From Malacoraja senta (Eukaryota): 64,000 bases of DNA. Of the stretch, positions 26,545 to 39,051 are shown in pieces. Position 1 is the stretch's first letter, and every line of letters begins with the position of its first letter. The DNA is taken from assembly GCA_038087875.1 (NCBI GenBank), contig CM075990.1, positions 8,682,001 through 8,746,000 of the forward strand, written 5' to 3'. The notes under the pieces were generated by a model, which searched no databases, was not told where the DNA came from, and saw nothing but the letters and a program-made list of their open reading frames with translations. A program made the position numbers and the translations under genes.

Positions 26545-27620
26545 GAAGGGATGGTACTCAGGGCCTGCTGCACCGTGGAAGGGATAATACTGAAGGAACT
26601 CAGCACTTTAGGAAGCGTGCTACCAGATAGCATTGCAATGTCTGACGGACAATACTAGGGCAGTGTTGTTCTGCTGTGGGACAGTACTGTTGAAGTCCAG
26701 CTTTTGAGGAGGGACAGTACTGAGGGAGTGTTGCACAGTAAAGGGCCTGTCCCACGGGCATGTGACTCCATGTGGCAAGCGCGACCTAACCGCAAGCGGG
26801 GGCCGTGCTGGGGCCGCGCGGAGGTCGTGGGGCCGGTCCCACTTCGATCGCCGGAGCCATATGGAGTTGTGCGGAGCTGGGCTCCAAAAAACTGACACTG
26901 TTCAAAAATTCCGTGCGGCAACAGCCTGCCACCCCGCAGCCGCATCGAGGCCGTGCGCACCACCTCTACGCCGTACGCACCGTCTTGACGTCACTCGACC
27001 TCCGCGCGGCCCCTGCTTCCGGGTTGGTTGCGCTTGCCGCATGCTAGTGGGACCGGCCCTGTACGGGGATCACTCGACCTCCGCGCGGCACCCGCTTGCG
27101 GTTAGGTCGCGCTTGACGCATGGAGTCGCATGCCCGTGGGACAGGCCCTTAAGAGGGGCACTTCTGAGGGGGTGCTGCATTGTATAAGGGGGAAACCAGG
27201 GGAGCACTACATTGTAGGTGAGGCAGTACTAAGGGAGTACTACATTGTAGGTGAGGCAGTAATGATGGAGTGCTGTACTGCCAGAGGAAGTGTGCAGGAA
27301 GGAACTGCAGATGCTGGTTTTACACCGAAGATCGACACAAAATATTGGAGTAACAGCGGGTCAGGCAGCATCTCTGGAGAAAAGGAATAGGTGACGTTTC
27401 AGGTCGAGACCCTTCTTCAGACCAAGAGTCAATCTATCAGAGGAAGTGCTGAACTGTCAGAGAGGCATTACTGAAGGAATGCTGCACTGTCAGAGGGGCA
27501 GTATTAAGCCAGTGCTGTGCTGTAAAGAGTGGCAGTACTGAAGGATTGCTACATTGTCATCGGGATAATATTAAAGGAGTAACGTTCTATCAAGTGAGAA
27601 ATACTGAAAGGTTGCGGCAG
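26545..27620 (+). repeat. Degenerate ~33-bp minisatellite (CAGTACTGAGGGAGTGCTGCACTGTCAGAGGGG-like), interrupted by a MITE and a Penelope-derived repeat
   Basis: Recurrent CAGTA(C/T)T.AGGGAGT.CT.CA(C/T)TGT units at about 33-nt spacing. Confidence 0.75.
26742..27149. mobile_element. PIF/Harbinger-type MITE, copy B
   Basis: TIR begins AGGGCCTGTCCCACGGGCATG.GACTCCATG and extends imperfectly to about 100 bp. TAA TSD (26739-26741, 27150-27152). Confidence 0.88.
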
Positions 27621-28882
27621 TGAAAGAAGGACAATCTCAACAGAAATCATCGATGAGTAGTTCTTTCTCGCTCCTTCCAATCGATATCATGCATTCTATT
27701 TGTACTGAAGGAAGGACGTTTTGAACAGACATATGGTTTTGTATTTGATAACTGGAACGTCTGAATTCAGTTTTCCCACTGCAATCTGTAGATCTTGAAA
27801 TCAAGTCCTAGTTTTACCTAATCATGATTCCTCTTGTGCTGTGCCCAGTAAATTCCTCAAAGCTGTTCCCATTGGGGTTATTTTTAGGGTGCTTGGAGCT
27901 GGAGCTGTTTTGGGGGTTTAGCAGAGGAAGAGGGCAGGGGACGGGTGGGGATTGATATAGGGTTTTGTGATTTGGAGGACTGGGGTGAAGGTTAGCTGGG
28001 GCTGGGATATGTAGGTGAGGGGTGTTCATAATGTCATAAGTGATAAGGTCATAAGAATTAGGCCATTCGGCCCATCAAGAATACTCCGCCATTCAATCAT
28101 GGCTGATCTGATCTATACCATGCAAGACCAATAGAGGCATGGAAGTACATTTATTGGGGCATGAATAAGCAATCCCATCGTTGTGCATAAGTTCATCAGA
28201 GATAGGAGCAGAATTAGCCCATTCGGCCCATCATGTCTACTCCACCATTCAATCATGACTGATCTATCTCCCCCTGCTAACCCCATTCTCCTGCCTTCTT
28301 GCCATAACCTCTGACACCCGTACTAATCAAGAATCTATCACTGCCTTAAAAATATCCATTGACGGCCTCCACAGCCTTCTGTGGCAAAGAATAGAAAGAT
28401 TAAACGAGAACTTACCGTTTGAAGTTTGATCTTTATTTTATGAGAAGTTGAAGTGAGGGAATACGTGAAGAGCCCGCCAGCCCCCATGCGCGTCAATCTT
28501 CAGGGCAACTGTATGAAACCACAGACCAGTTGCAGAACTTAAACTATAGAAAGACTAACGAGACTAGAGTTACCGGATGATCTTTTATGAGAATCAGGGT
28601 TGGGAGTGGAGGGCACGTATTCCCTCACTTCAACTTCTCATAAAATAAAGATCAAACTTCAAACGGTAAGTTCTCGTTTAATCTTTCTATTTTATTTCGA
28701 AGTCACGAGAGTGACTACGTGAAGCCTTCAAAGCTATGTGGTTTTATGCAGTAACCCAATCTGTGTGTGAAACACTTAAACAGATAAAACCATAAATGGT
28801 AAAAAGACATGGGTTATTAACAACATGATGCTAACTTGCATACATGGCCATTGCTCTTAATTGGACCATAGTCCCTATAGAC

Positions 28883-31187
28883 CAGTGGTTCTCAACCTTG
28901 TTTGCCCCATGCACCTCTTTCACCATATGTCAGAATGTCATTCCCCCCCTCCTTTCCAAGATTGTCTGCCTCAAAAAGTGCATTCCAAATAATATGCATA
29001 TAATACTGAAAATCCTTTATTTTTTCCATATTAGTACATATACATTTACAATTTTACATGGATTATTTTTATAGTGGAGTTTTACAAATTAAATGCCAAT
29101 TGAAAATGTTGATGGATTTATAAAACTTGAATAAAAGTAAAATAGTTTTTTTAATATTTATAATGAATTACTTAACAGACCAAACTGAAGCATAATGCAA
29201 TAAACAAAAAGTTCAATAGAATACCAGGATATTGTAAATTTGTAATTAATTTTATTCAGATGAAGATTACAGTCAATGAGAAACCTGTGATTGTTTTTTC
29301 TTCGCCAATTCTGGCATACGCGGAGGAGTGCTTGAAAGGGCACAACACAGGTCATTTTCTACCTCTAATCTACTACGTTGCTTCGTTTTAATTTGCAACA
29401 GAGTTGAAAAGCCTGACTCACAAAGATATGTCGACACAAACGGAAGCAATGCACGGATAGCTCTTTCTGCCACTTTTGGGTAGGAATCGCACATCAAGGG
29501 CCAAAATTCTGTGATTGATTTCTCAACGAACATATCTCTTGCTCCCGAATCAGTTTTCAGCTCCAGAAATTCATCTTGACAATCATCAGGAACTTTTTCA
29601 ACTGACAATTTGAATGGATTTCGCACTAAATCCAACTCATCATCACTGAGTTCAGGAAAATATCGGCTGAATTCATTTTCCAGTGTTGTCAAATGCTGCA
29701 AAATTTCATTTTTTGCAAATTGTGGAAGCACCTTGTCTTCACCACCAACAACAAGAACGGATGACATTTTCTCAAACATTGCAACATTTTTTATATTGAC
29801 CTTTCTTTTCCAATTTTCCAGCTTGCTCATGAAAGCTTTCAAGGCATCCATGAATTTTATGATGTTTGTATTCCTTCCTTGCATCTGAAGATTCAGTTTA
29901 TTCAGCTGCTCAAAAATATCAACCAAATAGGCAAGGCGCATGATCCATTCCTCATCATCCAGCCAGGCAAAAAATACCATCTTACCCTGAACTTCAAAAA
30001 ATAATTTGAGCTCATCTCTAGTCTAACCTCAAATATTCGCTCAGTTACATTTCCTCTTGACAGCCATCGAACATTTGTGTGGAAAAGAATGATGTTCTGC
30101 ATCCATGATGGGCTGCATCCATGTCGGTACATAACTGCTTAAAAAGTTGTGAGTTGAGAGCTCCTCCTTTGACAAAATTCACAATTTGAATTGTTTGATC
30201 CAAAACCTTCCCTAGCGGAGCTGGAAGTGTTTTTGAGGCCAGTGCCTGACGATGGATCATACAATGAATGCCTTTCACTTTTGGAGCTTGCTTTTTCGCA
30301 CAAACTTGAAATCCTGATTTTGTCCCCAACATAGCTGGTGCTCCATCTGTACAGCACCCACAGATATTATCCCACAAAAGATTTTCTGATTCAAAGAAAG
30401 ATGAAACCTTTTCCAAAATATCCGAGGCCTAGGTAGTTGTTTCAAGAGGAGAACAAAAGAGAAACTCCTCTTTAAATGAACCTGTGAACATACCTTGCTA
30501 ACACCATCAACTGGGAACACGATGCCTCACGATGATGAAGTCGATTCATCAAGTTGAATTGAAAATAAGCCAAATGCTGAAGACTTGATCTCCTGCACAA
30601 CTTGATCCTTGATGTCAATGGCCATATCGCTGATCCTCCTTTGAACAGTACTGTTTGATAGTGGAACCGCTGCAAGTTTTTTCTCCAATCCATTTCCCAA
30701 CACAATTTCCACCATTTTGAGAGAGCAAGGTTTGATCAAATATTCCCCAAATTGTATGTGGTTTTTTCTGCTTTGCTATCTCCAGTGCTACGACATAAGA
30801 AGCTTCAGTAACCTTTTGGTTTGTTTCTGGTGGGGGTACTCGTGACAGGAGGCTAGGTCTAGGACTCTAAGCAAAGCGTAAGCTTTCGTAAGGGTACTTG
30901 CAGACGGACCACTCGGTGGCGCCTATGTCTTTCCTTTGTGGCAGCCCTGTCTATGGGTAATCTATTTTGATCCTTACAGTTCAGGAGCTTGTGGTGAACG
31001 GTTTGATAGGCTGCTTGCAGCAGGTAACCGATGCATACGGAATTTTGTGCCGCCCTGAGGAGCTCAAAGGCAATAAAAAGATCAACATTCTAACAGTTTG
31101 AGTTTGCTAATCTGTGGTCCCAATTCCCCCCCCTGAAAACCTGAAATCCCCCCCTAGGGGGAATTCCCCCCCTGGTTGAGACCCCTG
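28883..31187 (-). mobile_element. hAT DNA transposon, Buster/Charlie subgroup, internally deleted
   Basis: TIRs CAGTGGTTCTCAACC and (reverse complement) CAGGGGTCTCAACC. 8-bp TSD CTATAGAC (28875-28882) / CTTTAGAC (31188-31195) with the central TA typical of Buster targets. Confidence 0.93.
29273..30830 (-). pseudogene. Frameshifted Buster-type hAT transposase (ZBED5/ZBED8/SCAND3-like family); N-terminus missing
   Basis: Motifs across several frames: FSIQLDEST, TDGAPAM, HCMIHRQAL, VRWLSRG, STYLCESGFS, KKKQSQVSH*. Confidence 0.9.
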
Positions 31188-33467
31188 CTTTAGACAATAA
31201 CTCATGCAACCCTGTTCAGAATTCTATCTGCAAATATCCAGACATATTCAACCAAATTTTATAACTTCTGAACACGCAATATGTAAGCCTCTTGCTGTAT
31301 GATGAAAGGGAAATATCCATTCTATTGGCTGCTAATGAGTCATCAGAAATCTCTTAAGAGAGTATTAACTAACAATGAAGAAACTATCTTTTATCTCATA
31401 GGTACCAGCAAGCTCAGTGTACCTGTATACAGAATAATACCCCCAATCTCTGATCTGGTGGGTATGCTGTTAACTCCAAATGTACGCAACCATGCCCGTT
31501 TTGCTTTATGAGATAATTCCCATAACAAGCTACCCTAATGTCAGTTATGACCCAGACACCGCCGCGCCATGCGTCGACGTATTAACATGCATGCGGGCTG
31601 GCGGGTTCTTCACGTAGTCACTCATGTGACTTCGAAATAAAATTCTACAGATTCACCAACCTCCGACTAAAGGAATTTCTCCTCATCTCCTTCCTAAAAG
31701 AACGTCCTTTAATTCTCAGGCTATGACCTCTAATCCTAGACTCTCCTGCCTGGATATTTTTGGCTGGGACTGACAATCATTCTCATTGAGGAATGGAATC
31801 AGGCAGGCCTCGTGCTCATGGTGAATGCTCAGTGATCTCTGCTGGATGCCTGAGATAGCCATGTACCCTGTCAACTCAAATTGCAAGGATTACAACTAAG
31901 CATAGGTCCATGAGACCTGGGGGAGATATTATGGCCTGTAGAACGTAAGGTAAAAAGTCAAGGACAAGAAATTCCATATTAAAGCTTAATCTCTTTAATT
32001 AAGATAGTTCTGTCTTGGGGTCACTACCCGGTGGAAATTAATACATCACGCTTGTTGCCCTATACATCTGGTGAAGCGGAGCAATAAAAGACCCGGTGCA
32101 CCTTTGAACCATTATACGATCAGAACCATGCATGAAGCCCTAATCGCCTGTGATAAAGTTGTAATGTATAAGGTCAATGTGCCCACTTGTCCACTTCTCC
32201 ACCAGTCCATGGCAACCGTTTAAGTTTGCCACTTACAGAAAGTTTAACGGCAGTGCAGACAAAAGCAGGGAACTACAAAAATACATTGATTGATTCGCTG
32301 AGTGAGCGAGTGAGAAAAGCTGCAGCAAATGGTTTGAACTGAGGTGTGTTTGAGATTCATTCTGGAGCAAAAGAGGATTGATCTGAGTATTGCTAAGTGC
32401 ATAGCAGGGGAAGAAGCTTAGGGGTAATTGAACACAAACAAACATATATAGTGTTTAGATGCAAGAAGCAATTAAAAAAGTTAATGGATTGTCAACCTTT
32501 ATAAACCAATGTTGGATCTCATCTGAAATGCAGTGCAGATTCACCAGAATGTTGGCAGGCTCTTTAAGGTGCAATGATTGAGAGAATGCATAAACTAGAT
32601 TTGCATTTTCTAGAATCTAAAAGGCAAAGAGGTGATTTCATAGAGGTTTCATGATAATGGAAGCAATTTATTGCGAGGGAAAGAGAAACGTTTAATGCTA
32701 GTGTGGAGAAATCAGTCATATAGAGAAAAATAGCAAGTATTTAATTTCAAATAAGTAACTTGAATTGCAGAGTTTCTGCAAACAATGTGATGTATATGAT
32801 GATAATTTTCGAAGAGGAAGGATTCCTATTCCTGTTCCTTCCTATTTGAAAATTATATTGTATATTTGCATTCTTATCAATCTCTTTTTCCCAAGTCTCG
32901 CTGTCTTTATGAATTATTTTCTCCATTCTTTCTTTGCCTTTTTGTTAGCCCCATTCCATTTCTCTCTCTCTCTGACACGATTCTTCCTTCACTCTCTCCA
33001 TCTCTTTTTCATTCTTTCACCTCTATTAATTCATGCAGTATAATGTAGATACATGTGAGGTTATCCACTGTAGCGGAAAGAACAAGGAGGCAGATTATTA
33101 TCTCAATGGTGTCAGATTAGGAAAAAAGGAAGTGCAATGAGACCTGGATGTCCTTGTACACCAGTCACTGAAAGTAAACATGCAGGTACAGCAAGCAGTG
33201 AAGAAAGCTAATGGCATGCTGGCCTTCGTAACGAGAGGATTTGAGTATAGGAGTAAAGAGGTCCTTCTGCAGTTGTACAGGGTCCTGGTGAGACCACACC
33301 TGGAGCATTGTGTGCAGTTTTGGTCTCCTAATTTGAGGAAGGACATCCTTGCGATTGAGGCAGTGCAGCGTAGGTTCACAAGGTTAATCGCTGGGATGGG
33401 GGGACTGTCATATGAGGAAAGATTGGAAAGACTGGGCTTGTACTCACTGGAATTTAGAAGGATGAGG

Positions 33468-33882
33468 ATGTTTTGACCCGGGCGCCGTCGCACTCAAAGT
33501 CCGGCACCCGGGCCAAAACTCCTCAGCTGGCCTGCCGGCTGGGCTTTGTGTTCTGCTACACGCAAAGTCCGGCACCCCATCCAACTCATGAACCGATGAT
33601 CGGCCATGAGAAGGAGGGGTGGTGGTGTCGGCGCTAAGCGAAGGTCCGATGGTCGGGCTGCCGACCGATGGGGCCACGGGTGAGGGGCAGCTGCTGTACT
33701 CCATCGGCTGCACTACATCGGGACGGGTGAGGCAGGGCCAGACACGGCGCTCTGACCCAACAGTTCCCTCGACCCAAGTAGTAGCAGTCAAATACGAGAC
33801 AAGGGTGGTACCCGTACGGGACAAACCAATTTAGCCCAATATACGTGATGTCCCGGCTAATACGGGACAGTTTGCAACCCTA
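33468..33882. mobile_element. One end of a GC-rich non-autonomous hAT-like element fused to a 3'-truncated CR1
   Basis: Ends in ...ACGGGACAGTTTGCAACCCTA (TAGGGTTGC-type hAT terminus) with subterminal CGGGAC repeats. No matching left TIR seen. Confidence 0.5.
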
Positions 33883-36800
33883 GCTGTATGGGTTTTGTGT
33901 CAGGACGTTGGAGTCAGATCATGCTTGTTCAGAAGCAGGTGGTCGCATTCTCCAGTGAAAGCTCTGAAATAAGAACATAAGAAATGGGAGCAGGAGTAGG
34001 TCACCCAGCCCTTTTATCAATATCATGACTGATCTACAACTGCAACAATTTCCAGTACTAACACCACGTCCCTTGATACTTTTAACATCTAGAAATCTAT
34101 CATTCTCTGCTTATTAACTGAGCTAGCAGAACCTTCAGGCCTGGAAAGTTCTGAAGGTGGACTACCTTCTGAGTGGAGAGACTTTTAACTATCTGAGTCC
34201 TAAATGGTCTATCCCACATTCTGCGCTGGAACTGATGTCCTCAGTCAGGGCAAAAATTCCTCCCGACATACAGCCGATACAAATTTTCAATTTCAGTAAA
34301 TTAGAATGATATAAGGACTAATCAGGAGGAAATTTGAAACAGAGCACTTCAAGATCCCTGTTGTGTTTTGAAAATAGTTGTTAATCCAAAGGAATTTGGT
34401 ACAGGTGCAATGGGTGTTTATATAAGAACCATATCAAGTAGGAAGGAGTACAGGGAGGATTTACGAGTATGTTGCCAGGACTAGAGGGTACGAGCTATAG
34501 GGAAAGGTTGAGTCAGCTGGAACTCTATTCCTTGGAGCGCAGGAGGATGAGGGGTGATCTTATAGAGGTGTATAAAATCATGAGAGGAATAGATCGGGTG
34601 GATGCACAGAGTCGCTTGCCCAGAGTAGGTGAATCGTGGACCAGAACTCACAGGTTTAAGTTGAAGGGGAAAAGATTGAATAGGAATCTGAGGGGTAAAT
34701 TTTTCACACAAAGGGTGGTGGGTGAATAGGCTGCCGGAGGAGACAGTTGAGGCAGGGACTATCCCAATATTTAAGAAACAGTTAGACCGGTACATGGATA
34801 GGTCAGGTTTGGAGGGATATGGACCAAACGCAGGCAGGTGGGATTAGTGTAGCTGGGACATGTTGGCCGGTGTGGGCAAGTTGGGCCGAAAGGCCTGTTT
34901 CCACATTGTATCACTATGACTCTATGACTCTATCTATTGTAATGTTAACACTAATATTATGCTAACTAATTCAGAGTGAACATTGTGTATCTTGTTCCCC
35001 TGAGTATGAACAATAATCATGAGCTAGACACCAAAGGAGAGGAATAATAATTGCTCTGTCACTTACTTCTCGTTTGTTATTTTTATTCTGGGATGATTGA
35101 CAACCTACAAAGTAAGATTAAGGTTTTTTGCCAAGAGGCTTCATTCACAATTCTGTCTGAAGCCCGATCCATTCTTTGCCAATATTTGGCCAAGAATTTG
35201 AAAACCCTTAAATCTCCATGTAAACAAGGAAAGCAAGGCAGGTAAATATATACAAACATCAGTGGAGCAGGAATGGGAAATTCATAAAAACAACATCAAT
35301 TTTTGGACCGTGTGATGCACATGACTCTTGCACGTCAATTAGCTGTTCCCAATGGAGGTTTTTTTTAGATATAAAGGAGCTAGTGTGCATATTGTTCCTT
35401 GCTGTTGGTGACTATGGTGCACCATCGTCCTATAAGAAGACCAGATTGCCTGTCCATCCATTAATCCATAAATGTAACTTTTATAATTTAGAATTTTTTT
35501 AAGGAATGTAAAAAATTCTATAAATATTGACATGTAACTTTTTAGCGATGTCGGTGCACCATACCGATATGTACCATCACAAACAAACATGGCCCGCCGT
35601 GGATACAATTTTAGTATTAGAATTAAATTCACATCTGAGACTTGATTTAATCTGTCGTCCTTCCCTCTGCATGTCCAACAGGGTATGTAGTCTCACCACG
35701 ATTCCTCTTCGAAACAGAGAAAGTGATTCAGTATTTCAGTTTTTCAGAGAAAGTGTTCATCAACATTCTTCAGTGTCTCATATGTTCTTTCCCTCCTGAG
35801 CAGGATTTATAACAAGGCAACCAGCTTGAACCCTTTGATTGCTTTCACCACCTCCCATAAGAATCCCAGCCATCATTACAGCTGTATCTTTAGCCATCTT
35901 CCTGTCCAACCTGTATCATTATTAAAACAGATTGTGTTCAATTTAGTTGCTGTGTTTCGTGCACCACAACATCTCAGTGTCTACTCTATTGATCACATGC
36001 ACTTTGGGATATCTTAGAGTCACGAAAAGAATGACCCATTTAGGGGGCAACATGGTGGCGCAGCGGTAGAGTTGCTGCCTTACCGTGCCAGTGATCCAGG
36101 TTCGATCCTGACAACGGGTGCTGTCTGTACAGAGTTTGTACGTTCTCCCCATGACCACATGCTCTTCCTCTGGTGCTCCGGTTTCCTTCCACACTCCAAA
36201 GACGTACAGGTTTGTAGATTAATTGGGTTCATTAAACGATTGTAAATTTTCCCTGGTGTGTCGGATCATGCTAGTGTATGGTGATAGCTGGTGGGCGCGG
36301 ATTTGATGGGCCAAAAGGGCTGTTTCCGAGCTGTATCTCTAAATTAAACTAAACAAACTTGTAAATTGAAGTAGCTTTTGATTCCAACTTGCCAAGAGGT
36401 TACTAAACAGTAGCTGATGCATTTATTCAAGTAGTTGTTTCCTCGTGCAGTCAGTTAGTGATGGTCGCAAAGCTTGGAACTGATCCTGATCATGACTACT
36501 GGTGGCAAGCTCAGAACAATGACCCTGGCCATGGACTCTTGAATCTGCCGCTGGTCAATAGTCCTGCTCTGTCTCCGGTCAGCTGTAGCAACTCTCTCCT
36601 GCTATTTCAATACTTCCATTCAATCCCGAGTTCAATGATGTGGAATGCACTTTAATATCTCCAAATCACATGCAAAACTCAAACATCAGAGAAGTGCATG
36701 TAAACTTTCTACATGAATCAGAATTTGAAAACTCTTCCACAATGCACCACTCTGGATTGTGAGAATTGTCAGCAACAGGTTATTTTCCTTGAGTCGCAAA

Positions 36801-39051
36801 CATCTTTAAAGTTCAGGCAAACTAAATTTATTTTACAAATGAGGTCTGGCTGTGCAGAGTAAGGTGTGATCCAAAGTCACCAGGCTGTGATGTTGATACT
36901 TGCACTAAGGAGTTGAGAAACGACCACATGGGTCCCGACTCGAAACATCACCCATCCATGTTCTCCAGAGATGCTCCTGACCCGCTGAGTTGCTCCAGCA
37001 CTCTTGTGTGTTTATTTATAAAGCACCATCTGTAGTTCCTTGTGACCACATTACAAAGTGTGACATGCACTTTGTGGTGGAATTCATTATAGCCATTGAA
37101 CACCTCATTCCATTCCCTCTGAAAGTCTGGTGGTTTTGGAGAACCTGCTTGATGATCTTGCCTTAAGTCCGTTCTTGCTTATATTCTGCCAGTCCTGATG
37201 ACGACTCATCTTGGAGACTGGTGCAATTTTGCAAAGCTAGCTATCCTGCATCCAACACTGATTCCATTGCCATTTAGCCAGAACTTTGTTAAAAATGAAT
37301 CTTCTTGTCATGTCTCACTGAGTTTTCTAAATGCCCCTGAAAAAAAGATTGTTTAAAATTCCTCACCCAGTTTCACTGGCTCTTCCTTTCTGCCCCTGGA
37401 GGTCAATGATGTTCTTACCTTAGTTATTGATCTGAAGACTATCTTAGATGACCCAAAATCGATGAGTTAGCCAGCACATTAGCTGTGCGATTGAAAGGTT
37501 AGAAGCCAGATGCCATTATCATACCGATATAACTAATCTCATGATAATAGATGCCGTTGCTGAGAAGCAATATACAGATGAGGAAAAGGAATAACCAAGG
37601 AGCAAACAGCTTCTCAGGTGAAACAATAGCAAAGCTGTTAAGTGGGTTTTTCTGGATTTCGCAGCAGTGATACAAACGGAATAGGGAGCTATGTGCCGTA
37701 CAAGCCTGGCCATTGAACGATGCAGTATCTTCTCACTAAAGGACATCCAGTCACTTTAATTTGCCTCACAGCACCCCTGGGACCCGCGTTTCATCCTGAC
37801 CTCATGTGCCACCTGTGTGGATTTTGCATGTTCTCCCTGTGGCTACGTGGGATATCTCTGGGTGCTAAGGAATGGATGATAAAGTGGGATAACATAAAAT
37901 AGTTGGTCTGGTCTCGCTGGGCCAAATAACCTGTTTCTATACTGTATCTCTAAATTAAACTAAACTGGCCTAAACACAAGGGGAATTAATTTCAGAAATA
38001 AAATAATTCTATGCTTGGCCTAAGTTACTGAATTGGTTTCTTTCCATCAGTAATACATTTAAATCAGTCAGTTAAGATATTGTTTCTGTGACAATGGCTT
38101 TAGTAGAGCCCAGAGTGATTAATGCACTCAGTATACCGACAGTTTGCTTCTTTGAGATATTAGTAAAAAATCCTGTTTTAGCATTGCTGGTGAGATTTCT
38201 GCTCGATTGCTGGACTGTGACACAAACACAGTTTATGCAAAAAAAATCTTCTTTCACATTGACTCAGGAAGATCAAAGTCATCGTTCCTGACACAGTTCC
38301 TGAATGCCCCCACCCTGTCCATTGCTGCCCCCTCCCTGCCCACTGTCTGGGGATGAATTGGTCACTTTTGTGTTGCACCTCAAGCTGAACAGTAGCCTCC
38401 AAAACAAGGTACACATGTGGAACAATAACATTCCAGTAGTCTGCCACTCCTGCTAATCAGGCAACTAACATCCTTTAATCCAGAACGTGAGCCACAGATC
38501 CAGTTGGGGGTAGGAGGTTTTGTTTTTAGTTTAGTTTAGAGATACAGCGTGGAAACAGGCCTTTCGGCCCACCGAGTCCACTCTGACCAGCGATCCCCGT
38601 ACACTAACACTACCCTACACGCATTAGAGACAATTTTACATTTGTACCAAGCCAATTAACTTACAAACCTGTAAGTCTTTGGAGTGTGGGAGGAAACCGA
38701 AGATCTCGTAGAACACCCAAGCGGGTCACAGGGAAAACGTACAAATTCCGTACAGACAAGCACCCATGGTTAGGATCGAACCCGGGTCTCTGGCGCTGTA
38801 AGGTAGTGGCTCTATCAGCCTGCATGAGGGGGGGTTTTGGAGTACAGCCAGGACAAAGGTACCATCGAAGTGGTAATCACCGGGGTTATATACAGATACT
38901 TTTGTAATGTTTAAGAAACAGTTAATGTAGATGGGTATATGGATAGGACAGGTTTAGAGGGGAACGGTATAAAAGCCCTGCATTCATCACACCTGCTCCT
39001 GTGTGGCCGCCACATTGAGATTAATCAAACAATGTCAACTTTTAGATTGTA

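What the first reader, a model, noticed from the sequence alone, without database searches (positions are those of the whole stretch)
28390..31643. Miniature non-coding DIRS1-type element whose ICR records the circle junction and the AAT crossover used for integration
Seen: 28390-28467 is perfectly inverted at 28614-28691. The adjoining 28689-28724 is inverted at 31608-31643 (2 mismatches). 28462-28497 and 31581-31616 are imperfect ITRs. The ICR reverse complement reads ...CGAAATAA-AAT-AGAAAG..., i.e. the two element ends joined through AAT. The genomic junctions are CAAAG-AAT-AGAAAG and CGAAATAA-AAT-TCTACAG, and the empty CR1 site is CAAAG-AAT-TC. Established: an ITR + extension + ICR layout and integration of a circular intermediate by a tyrosine recombinase define DIRS1-like retrotransposons. 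Inference: without the hAT this is only ~0.95 kb with no gag/RT/YR ORF but intact cis-signals, so it may belong to a trans-mobilised mini-DIRS family integrating by crossover within a 3-nt core.
Basis: partly seen in the sequence, partly recalled or inferred. Interest (0 to 1): 0.8.

Follow-up and report, generated by a model that had tools for sequence, protein, structure and literature searches.

The report
Deleted copy of gene-dead DIRS retrotransposon
This is a one-off shortened copy of a widespread jumping-gene family whose own genes are broken and which likely borrowed enzymes from intact relatives, so it is not a miniature family of its own, though the family's insertion sites show a longer target preference than the known three-letter core.

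Summary
The repeats, the ICR and the AAT/ATT junctions are exactly as described. The mini-DIRS family is not there. The deletion junction occurs twice in the 1.94-Gb genome: here and in a 99.5%-identical segmental duplicate 78.5 kb away. Of 84 other copies with both ends, 45 are 4.4-5.1 kb and the shortest is 1.85 kb. The element is a 941-bp private deletion derivative that still carries a recombinase remnant and was later hit by a hAT. Its parent is a non-autonomous DIRS1-like family of at least 199 copies. The copies are about 92% alike, share six stops in the recombinase frame (27-32 of 30-33 copies), and have termini 90-100% identical to coding DIRS elements. The ATT core is the commonest known DIRS1 junction (PMC3266345). 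Less expected: targets prefer AA-N6-ATT-WWA-N4-A, the main features replicating in a second set, and core mismatches point weakly to an A/TT crossover. This scan noted a protein-less DIRS1-type element before, in another genome (unchecked).

The parts
31641..31643 (-). ATT core at the 5' end of the element
   Evidence: sequence; ATT in 87 of 94 family 5' ends
31562..31643 (-). 82-nt 5' terminus of the DIRS element, including the left ITR
   Evidence: 90-94% identical to the first 82 nt of full-size copies
31581..31616 (-). left ITR, the part shared with the right ITR
   Evidence: 31 of 36 against 28462-28497
31561..31562 (-). private deletion junction; about 3.6 kb of the parent (gag, RT remnant, YR start) is missing
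   Evidence: L062 1-82 joined to L062 3688; junction 22-mer found twice genome-wide
31196..31561 (-). decayed tyrosine-recombinase sequence; lacks an 86-nt segment that, by position, held the HSTR box
   Evidence: tblastn E 5e-8 to YRs of L103 and L104; gap against L208 4092-4177, shared by 14 of 28 copies with both anchors
31188..31195 (.). hAT target-site duplication, right copy
   Evidence: 7 of 8 identical to 28875-28882
28883..31187 (-). nested hAT DNA transposon with a broken transposase
   Evidence: terminal inverted repeats; Pfam PF05699 E 3.9e-6 in 29276-30022
28875..28882 (.). hAT target-site duplication, left copy
28689..28724 (-). left ICR, complementary to the first 36 nt of the element
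   Evidence: 34 of 36; pairs in the co-fold
28689..28691 (-). circle-junction triplet where the two ICR halves overlap
28614..28691 (-). right ICR, complementary to the last 78 nt
   Evidence: 78 of 78
28462..28497 (-). right ITR
28390..28467 (-). right extension and 3' terminus, ending in ATT
   Evidence: identical at 76-78 nt to the ICR and end of the YR-coding element L083/L103; ATT in 107 of 118 family 3' ends
28115..28389 (+). host repeat, left part, interrupted at its AAT
31644..31746 (+). host repeat, right part, resuming in register

Best explanation
The element is a single, internally deleted copy (82 nt of 5' end joined to about 860 nt of 3' end, later interrupted by a hAT transposon and duplicated with its flanks) of a roughly 4.7-kb DIRS1-like family whose genes are broken, and which was likely copied and inserted by the reverse transcriptase and tyrosine recombinase of coding DIRS elements with the same ends. 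Shown: the terminal layout; uniqueness of the junction; a parent family of at least 199 copies; stops shared by nearly all copies, so the source element was already dead when it spread; termini shared with coding DIRS; one ATT in the empty site and one at each end; flanks unchanged beyond the core; an extended target preference. Inferred from the published model: an RNA copy is reverse transcribed, the ICR templates and aligns both ends into an rE-ATT-lITR junction, and the recombinase crosses this junction over with a genomic ATT. Inferred from this work: the crossover likely falls after the A (A/TT), and the recombinase likely reads about 20 bp of target. Not settled: whether the deletion arose during reverse transcription or after insertion.
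For: The junction 22-mer (up to 2 mismatches) has 2 hits, control 0. The second hit shares flanks and hAT at 99.5% over 8,992 nt. 38 of 40 scored 5'-end hits stop at query 80-84. A family-internal 22-mer has 199 hits, control 0. Lengths of 85 distinct copies with both ends: 45 at 4.4-5.1 kb, 17 shorter, 23 longer. The 12 short copies mapped each have their own breakpoints. Six YR-frame stops occur in 29/30, 27/33, 29/33, 32/32, 30/32 and 32/32 copies; median pairwise identity is 92% in 34 copies. No open frame over 119 aa among the 150 best of 5,910 candidates for the YR remnant. The methyltransferase-bearing frame hits 2 of 65 copies, both chimeras with coding DIRS. Termini are 90-100% identical to L103, L104 and L105. 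RT, MT-like and YR domains are present in L104, and long RT and YR frames in L108. DIRS-1 RT acts in trans and the ICR is required (PMC7192593 passages).
Against: The three coding elements with the closest ends (L103-L105) are themselves frameshifted or deleted. The one element with unbroken RT and YR frames among the five whose frames were listed (L108) has ends only 76-86% alike, so the actual helper was not identified. Only 145 family loci were fetched, and 60 were dropped or lacked an end inside the stretch, so a small mini family with another junction is not excluded. The window's own target fits the core and +8 A but not WWA or the -8/-7 AA. The crossover position rests on Fisher p 0.02-0.05, with about as many mismatches as later mutation would give, and one empty-site case (L181, one homolog) goes against it.
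Confidence: 0.85

Rival explanations
1. The 0.94-kb form is a member of its own trans-mobilised mini-DIRS family.
For: All terminal signals are intact, with rE and right ICR 78 of 78. A second copy exists. The parent family shows that mobilisation in trans works here.
Against: The junction occurs only in this insertion and its flank-sharing duplicate. None of 84 other two-ended copies is under 1.85 kb.
Confidence: 0.04
2. The parent family was autonomous when it spread, and every copy decayed separately afterwards.
For: gag-like, RT and YR remnants remain in the right order. Copies are 5-12% diverged, so all are old.
Against: The same six stops sit in nearly all copies. The MT region is absent from 63 of 65 copies. 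YR identity to coding elements is about 30% while copies are 92% alike in DNA. No intact close relative among 150 scored hits.
Confidence: 0.05
3. The deletion arose during retrotransposition: a stalled cDNA jumped to the 5' terminal segment, so the copy was inserted already short. This is a sub-case of the best explanation; the alternative is microhomology-mediated deletion after insertion.
For: Left breakpoints of several short copies lie just inside the 5' end (57, 62, 82, 115, 118, and 61 in coding L105). In one search, 4 of 11 large deletions start at or before 125 against 1.4 expected (P 0.005). The two breakpoint flanks here share a 7-of-8 microhomology.
Against: The 125 cut-off was chosen after seeing the data, and the window copy is forced into that class by its size. 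Microhomology fits repair after insertion equally well. Other deletions are scattered.
Confidence: 0.4

Closest known systems
DIRS1-like retrotransposons (Piednoel et al. 2011, PMC3266345; passages and Table 3 seen)
   Same: ITRs, right extension, two ICR halves overlapping on a 3-bp circular junction, NTT ends (ATT the most frequent), recombination with an identical genomic triplet.
   Different: No open gag, RT or YR frame. The parent family has shared inactivating lesions and lacks the MT region; this copy has lost about 3.6 kb more.
Dictyostelium DIRS-1 (Malicki et al. 2020, PMC7192593; passages seen)
   Same: ICR complementary to both ends; many fragmented copies; RT shown to act in trans; single-stranded cDNA.
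   Different: Here dispersed at ATT sites, and a gene-dead lineage amplified to hundreds of copies. In the passages seen, YR specificity is said to be untested.
TOC1 of Chlamydomonas (PMC9940879 passage) and SIRE of Trypanosoma cruzi (PMC6681497 passage)
   Same: Non-autonomous members of the DIRS order.
   Different: SIRE derives from VIPER, which has split direct repeats; that TOC1 has split direct repeats is recalled. This family is of the ITR/ICR type and keeps 4.7 kb of dead coding sequence.
Integron attC x attI and CTX phage integration (PMC4792948 passages)
   Same: A tyrosine recombinase, a conserved triplet giving microhomology at the crossover, and a folded single-stranded substrate; the DIRS ICR can also make the junction double-stranded by folding.
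   Different: Analogy only. No homology was tested, there are no extrahelical bases in the 74-bp rE/ICR stem, and single-strand exchange is unproven for DIRS.

Membership tests
DIRS1-like retrotransposons | imperfect ITRs plus right extension | tested here: met
DIRS1-like retrotransposons | ICR complementary to both ends, halves overlapping on 3 bp | tested here: met
DIRS1-like retrotransposons | NTT triplet at both ends matching the junction and the empty site | tested here: met
DIRS1-like retrotransposons | descent from a gag-RT/RH-MT-YR element | tested here: met
   YR remnant in this copy; gag-like, RT and YR remnants in the family; domains named in coding relatives
Autonomous DIRS1-like element | intact gag, RT/RH, MT and YR frames | tested here: not met
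   no YR or RT Pfam hit in 60 of the 100 frames listed for family copies; shared stops
Non-autonomous DIRS family (parent) | many dispersed copies that share inactivating lesions and keep termini matching coding elements | tested here: met
Non-autonomous DIRS family (parent) | mobilisation in trans by a named helper | not testable with these tools
   inferred; no intact element with identical ends identified
Mini-DIRS family (TRIM- or SIRE-like) | the same short structure at several independent sites | tested here: not met
Named Repbase or Dfam family | match to a curated consensus | not testable with these tools
   these libraries are not held
hAT DNA transposon (nested insert) | short terminal inverted repeats, 8-bp duplication, hAT transposase | tested here: met

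The most novel reading that the evidence does not exclude
The DIRS recombinase recognises a bipartite target of about 20 bp (AA-N6-A/TT-WWA-N4-A), with AA and TT framing a 7-bp spacer. It integrates the ICR-folded single-stranded cDNA by one strand exchange at A/TT that is resolved by replication, as integron integrases and CTX phage do. Gene-dead ITR/ICR families of several kilobases would then be a regular, undescribed class of DIRS passengers in vertebrate genomes.
Probability: 0.2. Interest if true: 0.7.

Novelty: new member of a known kind. Interest (0 to 1): 0.3.

Why it matters
The finding as posed does not matter much: it is one deleted copy, and its AAT junction is textbook. Two by-products have some value. 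First, a family of at least 199 copies that spread after its RT and YR were dead is genomic evidence that the whole DIRS cycle, integration included, runs in trans; PMC7192593 showed this only for reverse transcription. Second, about 110 independent insertion sites give a target motif and a candidate crossover point for a eukaryotic tyrosine recombinase whose specificity that paper calls untested. That makes an in vitro or cell-based integration assay easy to design.

Tried and rejected
A genome-wide pattern for any short element (left ITR within 1.5 kb of a left ICR) could not be run, so mini families with other junctions were tested only by sampling. Public runs: no RNA holder listed. Contigs of four runs break inside the repeats and cannot show whether another individual or species has an empty or full-length allele. 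Splicing as the cause of the deletion was rejected: the 5' breakpoint is followed by GAATC, not a donor GT. L279, which lies at the same host-repeat nucleotide, was rejected as an undeleted duplicate of this insertion: it has no long flank match and is 91-92% alike. Transfer of element bases into the right flank, as coupling sequences would give, was not seen: 0 of 36 informative positions at +1 to +5 in 14 sites; on the left, 2 of 12 at -1 and 1 of 11 at -5 matched the element. T at +5 did not replicate (12 of 29, p 0.23), and no mirror-image preference appeared at -9 to -22. Rfam gave no match in the window. Pfam on 10 window frames gave only the hAT domain above cut-off. The first end-finding scripts failed (one search found no 5' ends; one search timed out). 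PMC8498967, PMC4350176, PMC9210276 and PMC8969392 (passages) showed nothing on non-autonomous ITR/ICR families. No earlier notes exist for this genome.
Full report
Observation. All stated repeats are present. 28390-28467 is the exact reverse complement of 28614-28691, and 28689-28724 matches 31608-31643 with 2 mismatches. The ITRs match at 31 of 36. The element reads on the minus strand as ATT, left ITR, body, ICR, right ITR, right extension, ATT. Co-folding the two ends as DNA pairs the ICR with both termini side by side: 74 bp with the 3' end and 19+16 bp with the 5' end. The host repeat is interrupted at a single triplet: 22 of 23 other copies read AAT once at this place. Its label CR1, and the look of a shark or ray genome, are recalled and come from no call. 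The insert at 28883-31187 is a hAT with 8-bp duplications and a Pfam hAT domain. The DIRS part is 941 bp.

Is it a mini family? No. The genome (G000, 1.94 Gb) holds many relatives of the 3' part (40 of 2,545 candidates scored). A query across the 5' junction is matched end to end by 2 of 40 scored hits, and the other 38 stop at position 80-84. A 22-nt pattern across the junction, with up to 2 mismatches, has 2 hits genome-wide and the control has 0. The second hit lies 78.5 kb away and shares flanks and hAT at 99.5% over 8,992 nt, so it is a segmental or assembly duplicate of one insertion. I examined 145 family loci, chosen by parts that the short form also has (105; 40). I dropped 3 segmental duplicates, 11 loci with a foreign, eroded or tandem end, and those lacking an end in the fetched stretch; 85 remained. 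Of these, 45 are 4.4-5.1 kb, 23 are longer (nested insertions in those inspected) and 17 are shorter. Apart from this copy the shortest is 1,854 bp. The 12 short copies mapped have different breakpoints with up to 12 nt of overlap. This copy is the extreme case of a common private deletion, having lost about 3.6 kb.

The parent. A family-internal 22-mer has 199 hits, a lower bound. Full-size copies have no YR or RT Pfam hit in 60 of the 100 frames listed. They keep gag-like, RT and YR remnants in order, the YR at about 30% identity with stops and shifts. In 34 aligned copies, median identity 92%, six YR-frame stops are shared by 29/30, 27/33, 29/33, 32/32, 30/32 and 32/32 copies. The frame that carries the weak Dam hit in L104 (E 6e-4, below cut-off) finds 2 of 65 copies, both chimeras with coding elements. 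The 150 best of 5,910 candidates for the YR remnant have no open frame over 119 aa. The source element was therefore dead before it spread. The window copy keeps a YR remnant and lacks an 86-nt segment that by position held the HSTR box; 14 of 28 copies with both anchors share this gap. The genome has many YR-coding elements (95 of 2,538 candidates scored). L083/L103 has an identical right extension, and L104 is 90% alike at the 5' end and 93% over the last 355 nt. These closest elements are broken too. L108 has unbroken RT (1,051 aa) and YR (332 aa) frames but ends only 76-86% alike. The helper is thus inferred, not identified. Within copies, the right ICR and right extension differ at 4.2% of bases (42 of 52 copies usable), so activity is old. 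Pieces of the family also occur in contigs of two other organisms.

Integration. ATT stands at 87 of 94 5' ends and 107 of 118 3' ends. Beyond the core, positions found in a first set were tested in a second, against 17,834 background ATT sites and with repeated hot spots counted once. WWA at +1..+3 was 42/83 and 14/29 (background 10.5%). A at +8 was 41/83 and 15/29 (29%). AA at -8,-7 was 18/65 and 7/22 (9.3%); the two single positions came from set 1, and the dinucleotide was framed after both sets were seen. G at +1 was 0 of 112. T at +5 did not replicate. Among 16 3' flanks of YR-coding elements, 5 read WWA (read off). Insertions recur at the same nucleotide of host repeats with different elements: this site and L279; L080, L294 and L305. 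The window's own target fits only the core and +8 A. Repeat-rich targets may bias the logo.

Crossover point. For 14 of 86 sites an empty homolog was found in the local data. None of 36 informative positions at +1..+5 carries an element base. A GTT target gave GTT at the 5' end and ATT at the 3' end (L296, 1 homolog). An ATC target gave ATT and ATC (L297, 9 homologs). L181 (1 homolog, GTT giving ATT and ATT) goes against. Over all ends, position-1 mismatches are 6 at 5' and 3 at 3'; position-2 and -3 mismatches are 1 at 5' and 9 at 3' (Fisher p 0.02, or 0.05 counted by site). This favours a crossover after the A, but later mutation could account for most mismatches.

How it likely works. Following the model in PMC7192593 (passages), an RNA from a family member is reverse transcribed, the ICR restores and aligns both ends, and a YR recombines the junction with a genomic ATT. 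That paper shows the ICR is required, the cDNA is single-stranded and mostly linear, and RT acts in trans; it could not show full retrotransposition in trans. The shared-lesion family is genomic evidence for that last step (inference). Whether the substrate is a duplex circle or the folded single strand is open. The triplet homology, the unchanged flanks and the folded duplex junction resemble attC and CTX integration (PMC4792948 passages). This is an analogy; a five-term search for it returned one general review, seen only as a listing. When the deletion arose is also open. Left breakpoints cluster near the 5' end in some copies (4 of 11 against 1.4 expected, post hoc cut-off), but microhomology repair after insertion fits as well.

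Novelty. Non-autonomous DIRS-order elements are known (TOC1; SIRE). Searches for non-autonomous ITR/ICR families and for DIRS target preference listed no paper describing either, judged from listings and the passages read. The library lacks most subscription papers, the Poulter and Goodwin reviews were not read, no supplements were opened, and Repbase and Dfam are not held, so absence from print is not shown. This scan noted a protein-less 5.3-kb DIRS1-type element in another genome (unchecked). Verdict: observation confirmed, mini-family reading refuted, a new member of a known kind with a useful target-site by-product. Interest 0.3.

Noticed in passing
G000:C14:8631896-8635130 (L079) versus window 27823-36813: A direct duplicate 78.5 kb upstream, 99.5% identical over 9 kb and including the DIRS copy and the hAT; a tandem segmental duplication or an uncollapsed haplotype.
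   Followed up: partly
window 26742-27149: A 408-bp GC-rich element with perfect 21-nt terminal inverted repeats flanked by TAA on both sides; it looks like a PIF/Harbinger-type MITE (label recalled).
   Followed up: no
window 27195-27592: An imperfect 33-nt tandem repeat.
   Followed up: no
window 28875-28882 and 31188-31195: The hAT target duplication lies where this copy is about 12 nt shorter than other family copies, so a small deletion seems to have formed the site before or at hAT insertion.
   Followed up: partly
L105 (G000:C4:70508500-70517500), and L284, L292: The left ITR is joined to internal sequence exactly where the ITR homology ends (57-62 nt), as expected if a truncated cDNA rebuilt its 5' end from the right ITR.
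   Followed up: partly
L214 3' flank; L285 5' flank; L078: Family copies abut the ends of other DIRS elements through a shared ATT, and L078 has two 5' termini; the element's own junction may be a favoured target.
   Followed up: no
L108:3328-8112: A 4,785-bp DIRS1-like element with an unbroken 1,051-aa RT-bearing frame and a 332-aa YR frame; several coding DIRS families share the first 37 terminal bases at about 90%.
   Followed up: partly
L080, L294, L305, L281; L207, L211; L077, L118: Different family copies sit at the same or nearly the same position of abundant host repeats, which looks like insertion hot spots.
   Followed up: partly
L062-type versus L066-type copies: At least two subfamilies, 78-88% alike in the body, with different 5' rearrangements and internal repeats.
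   Followed up: no
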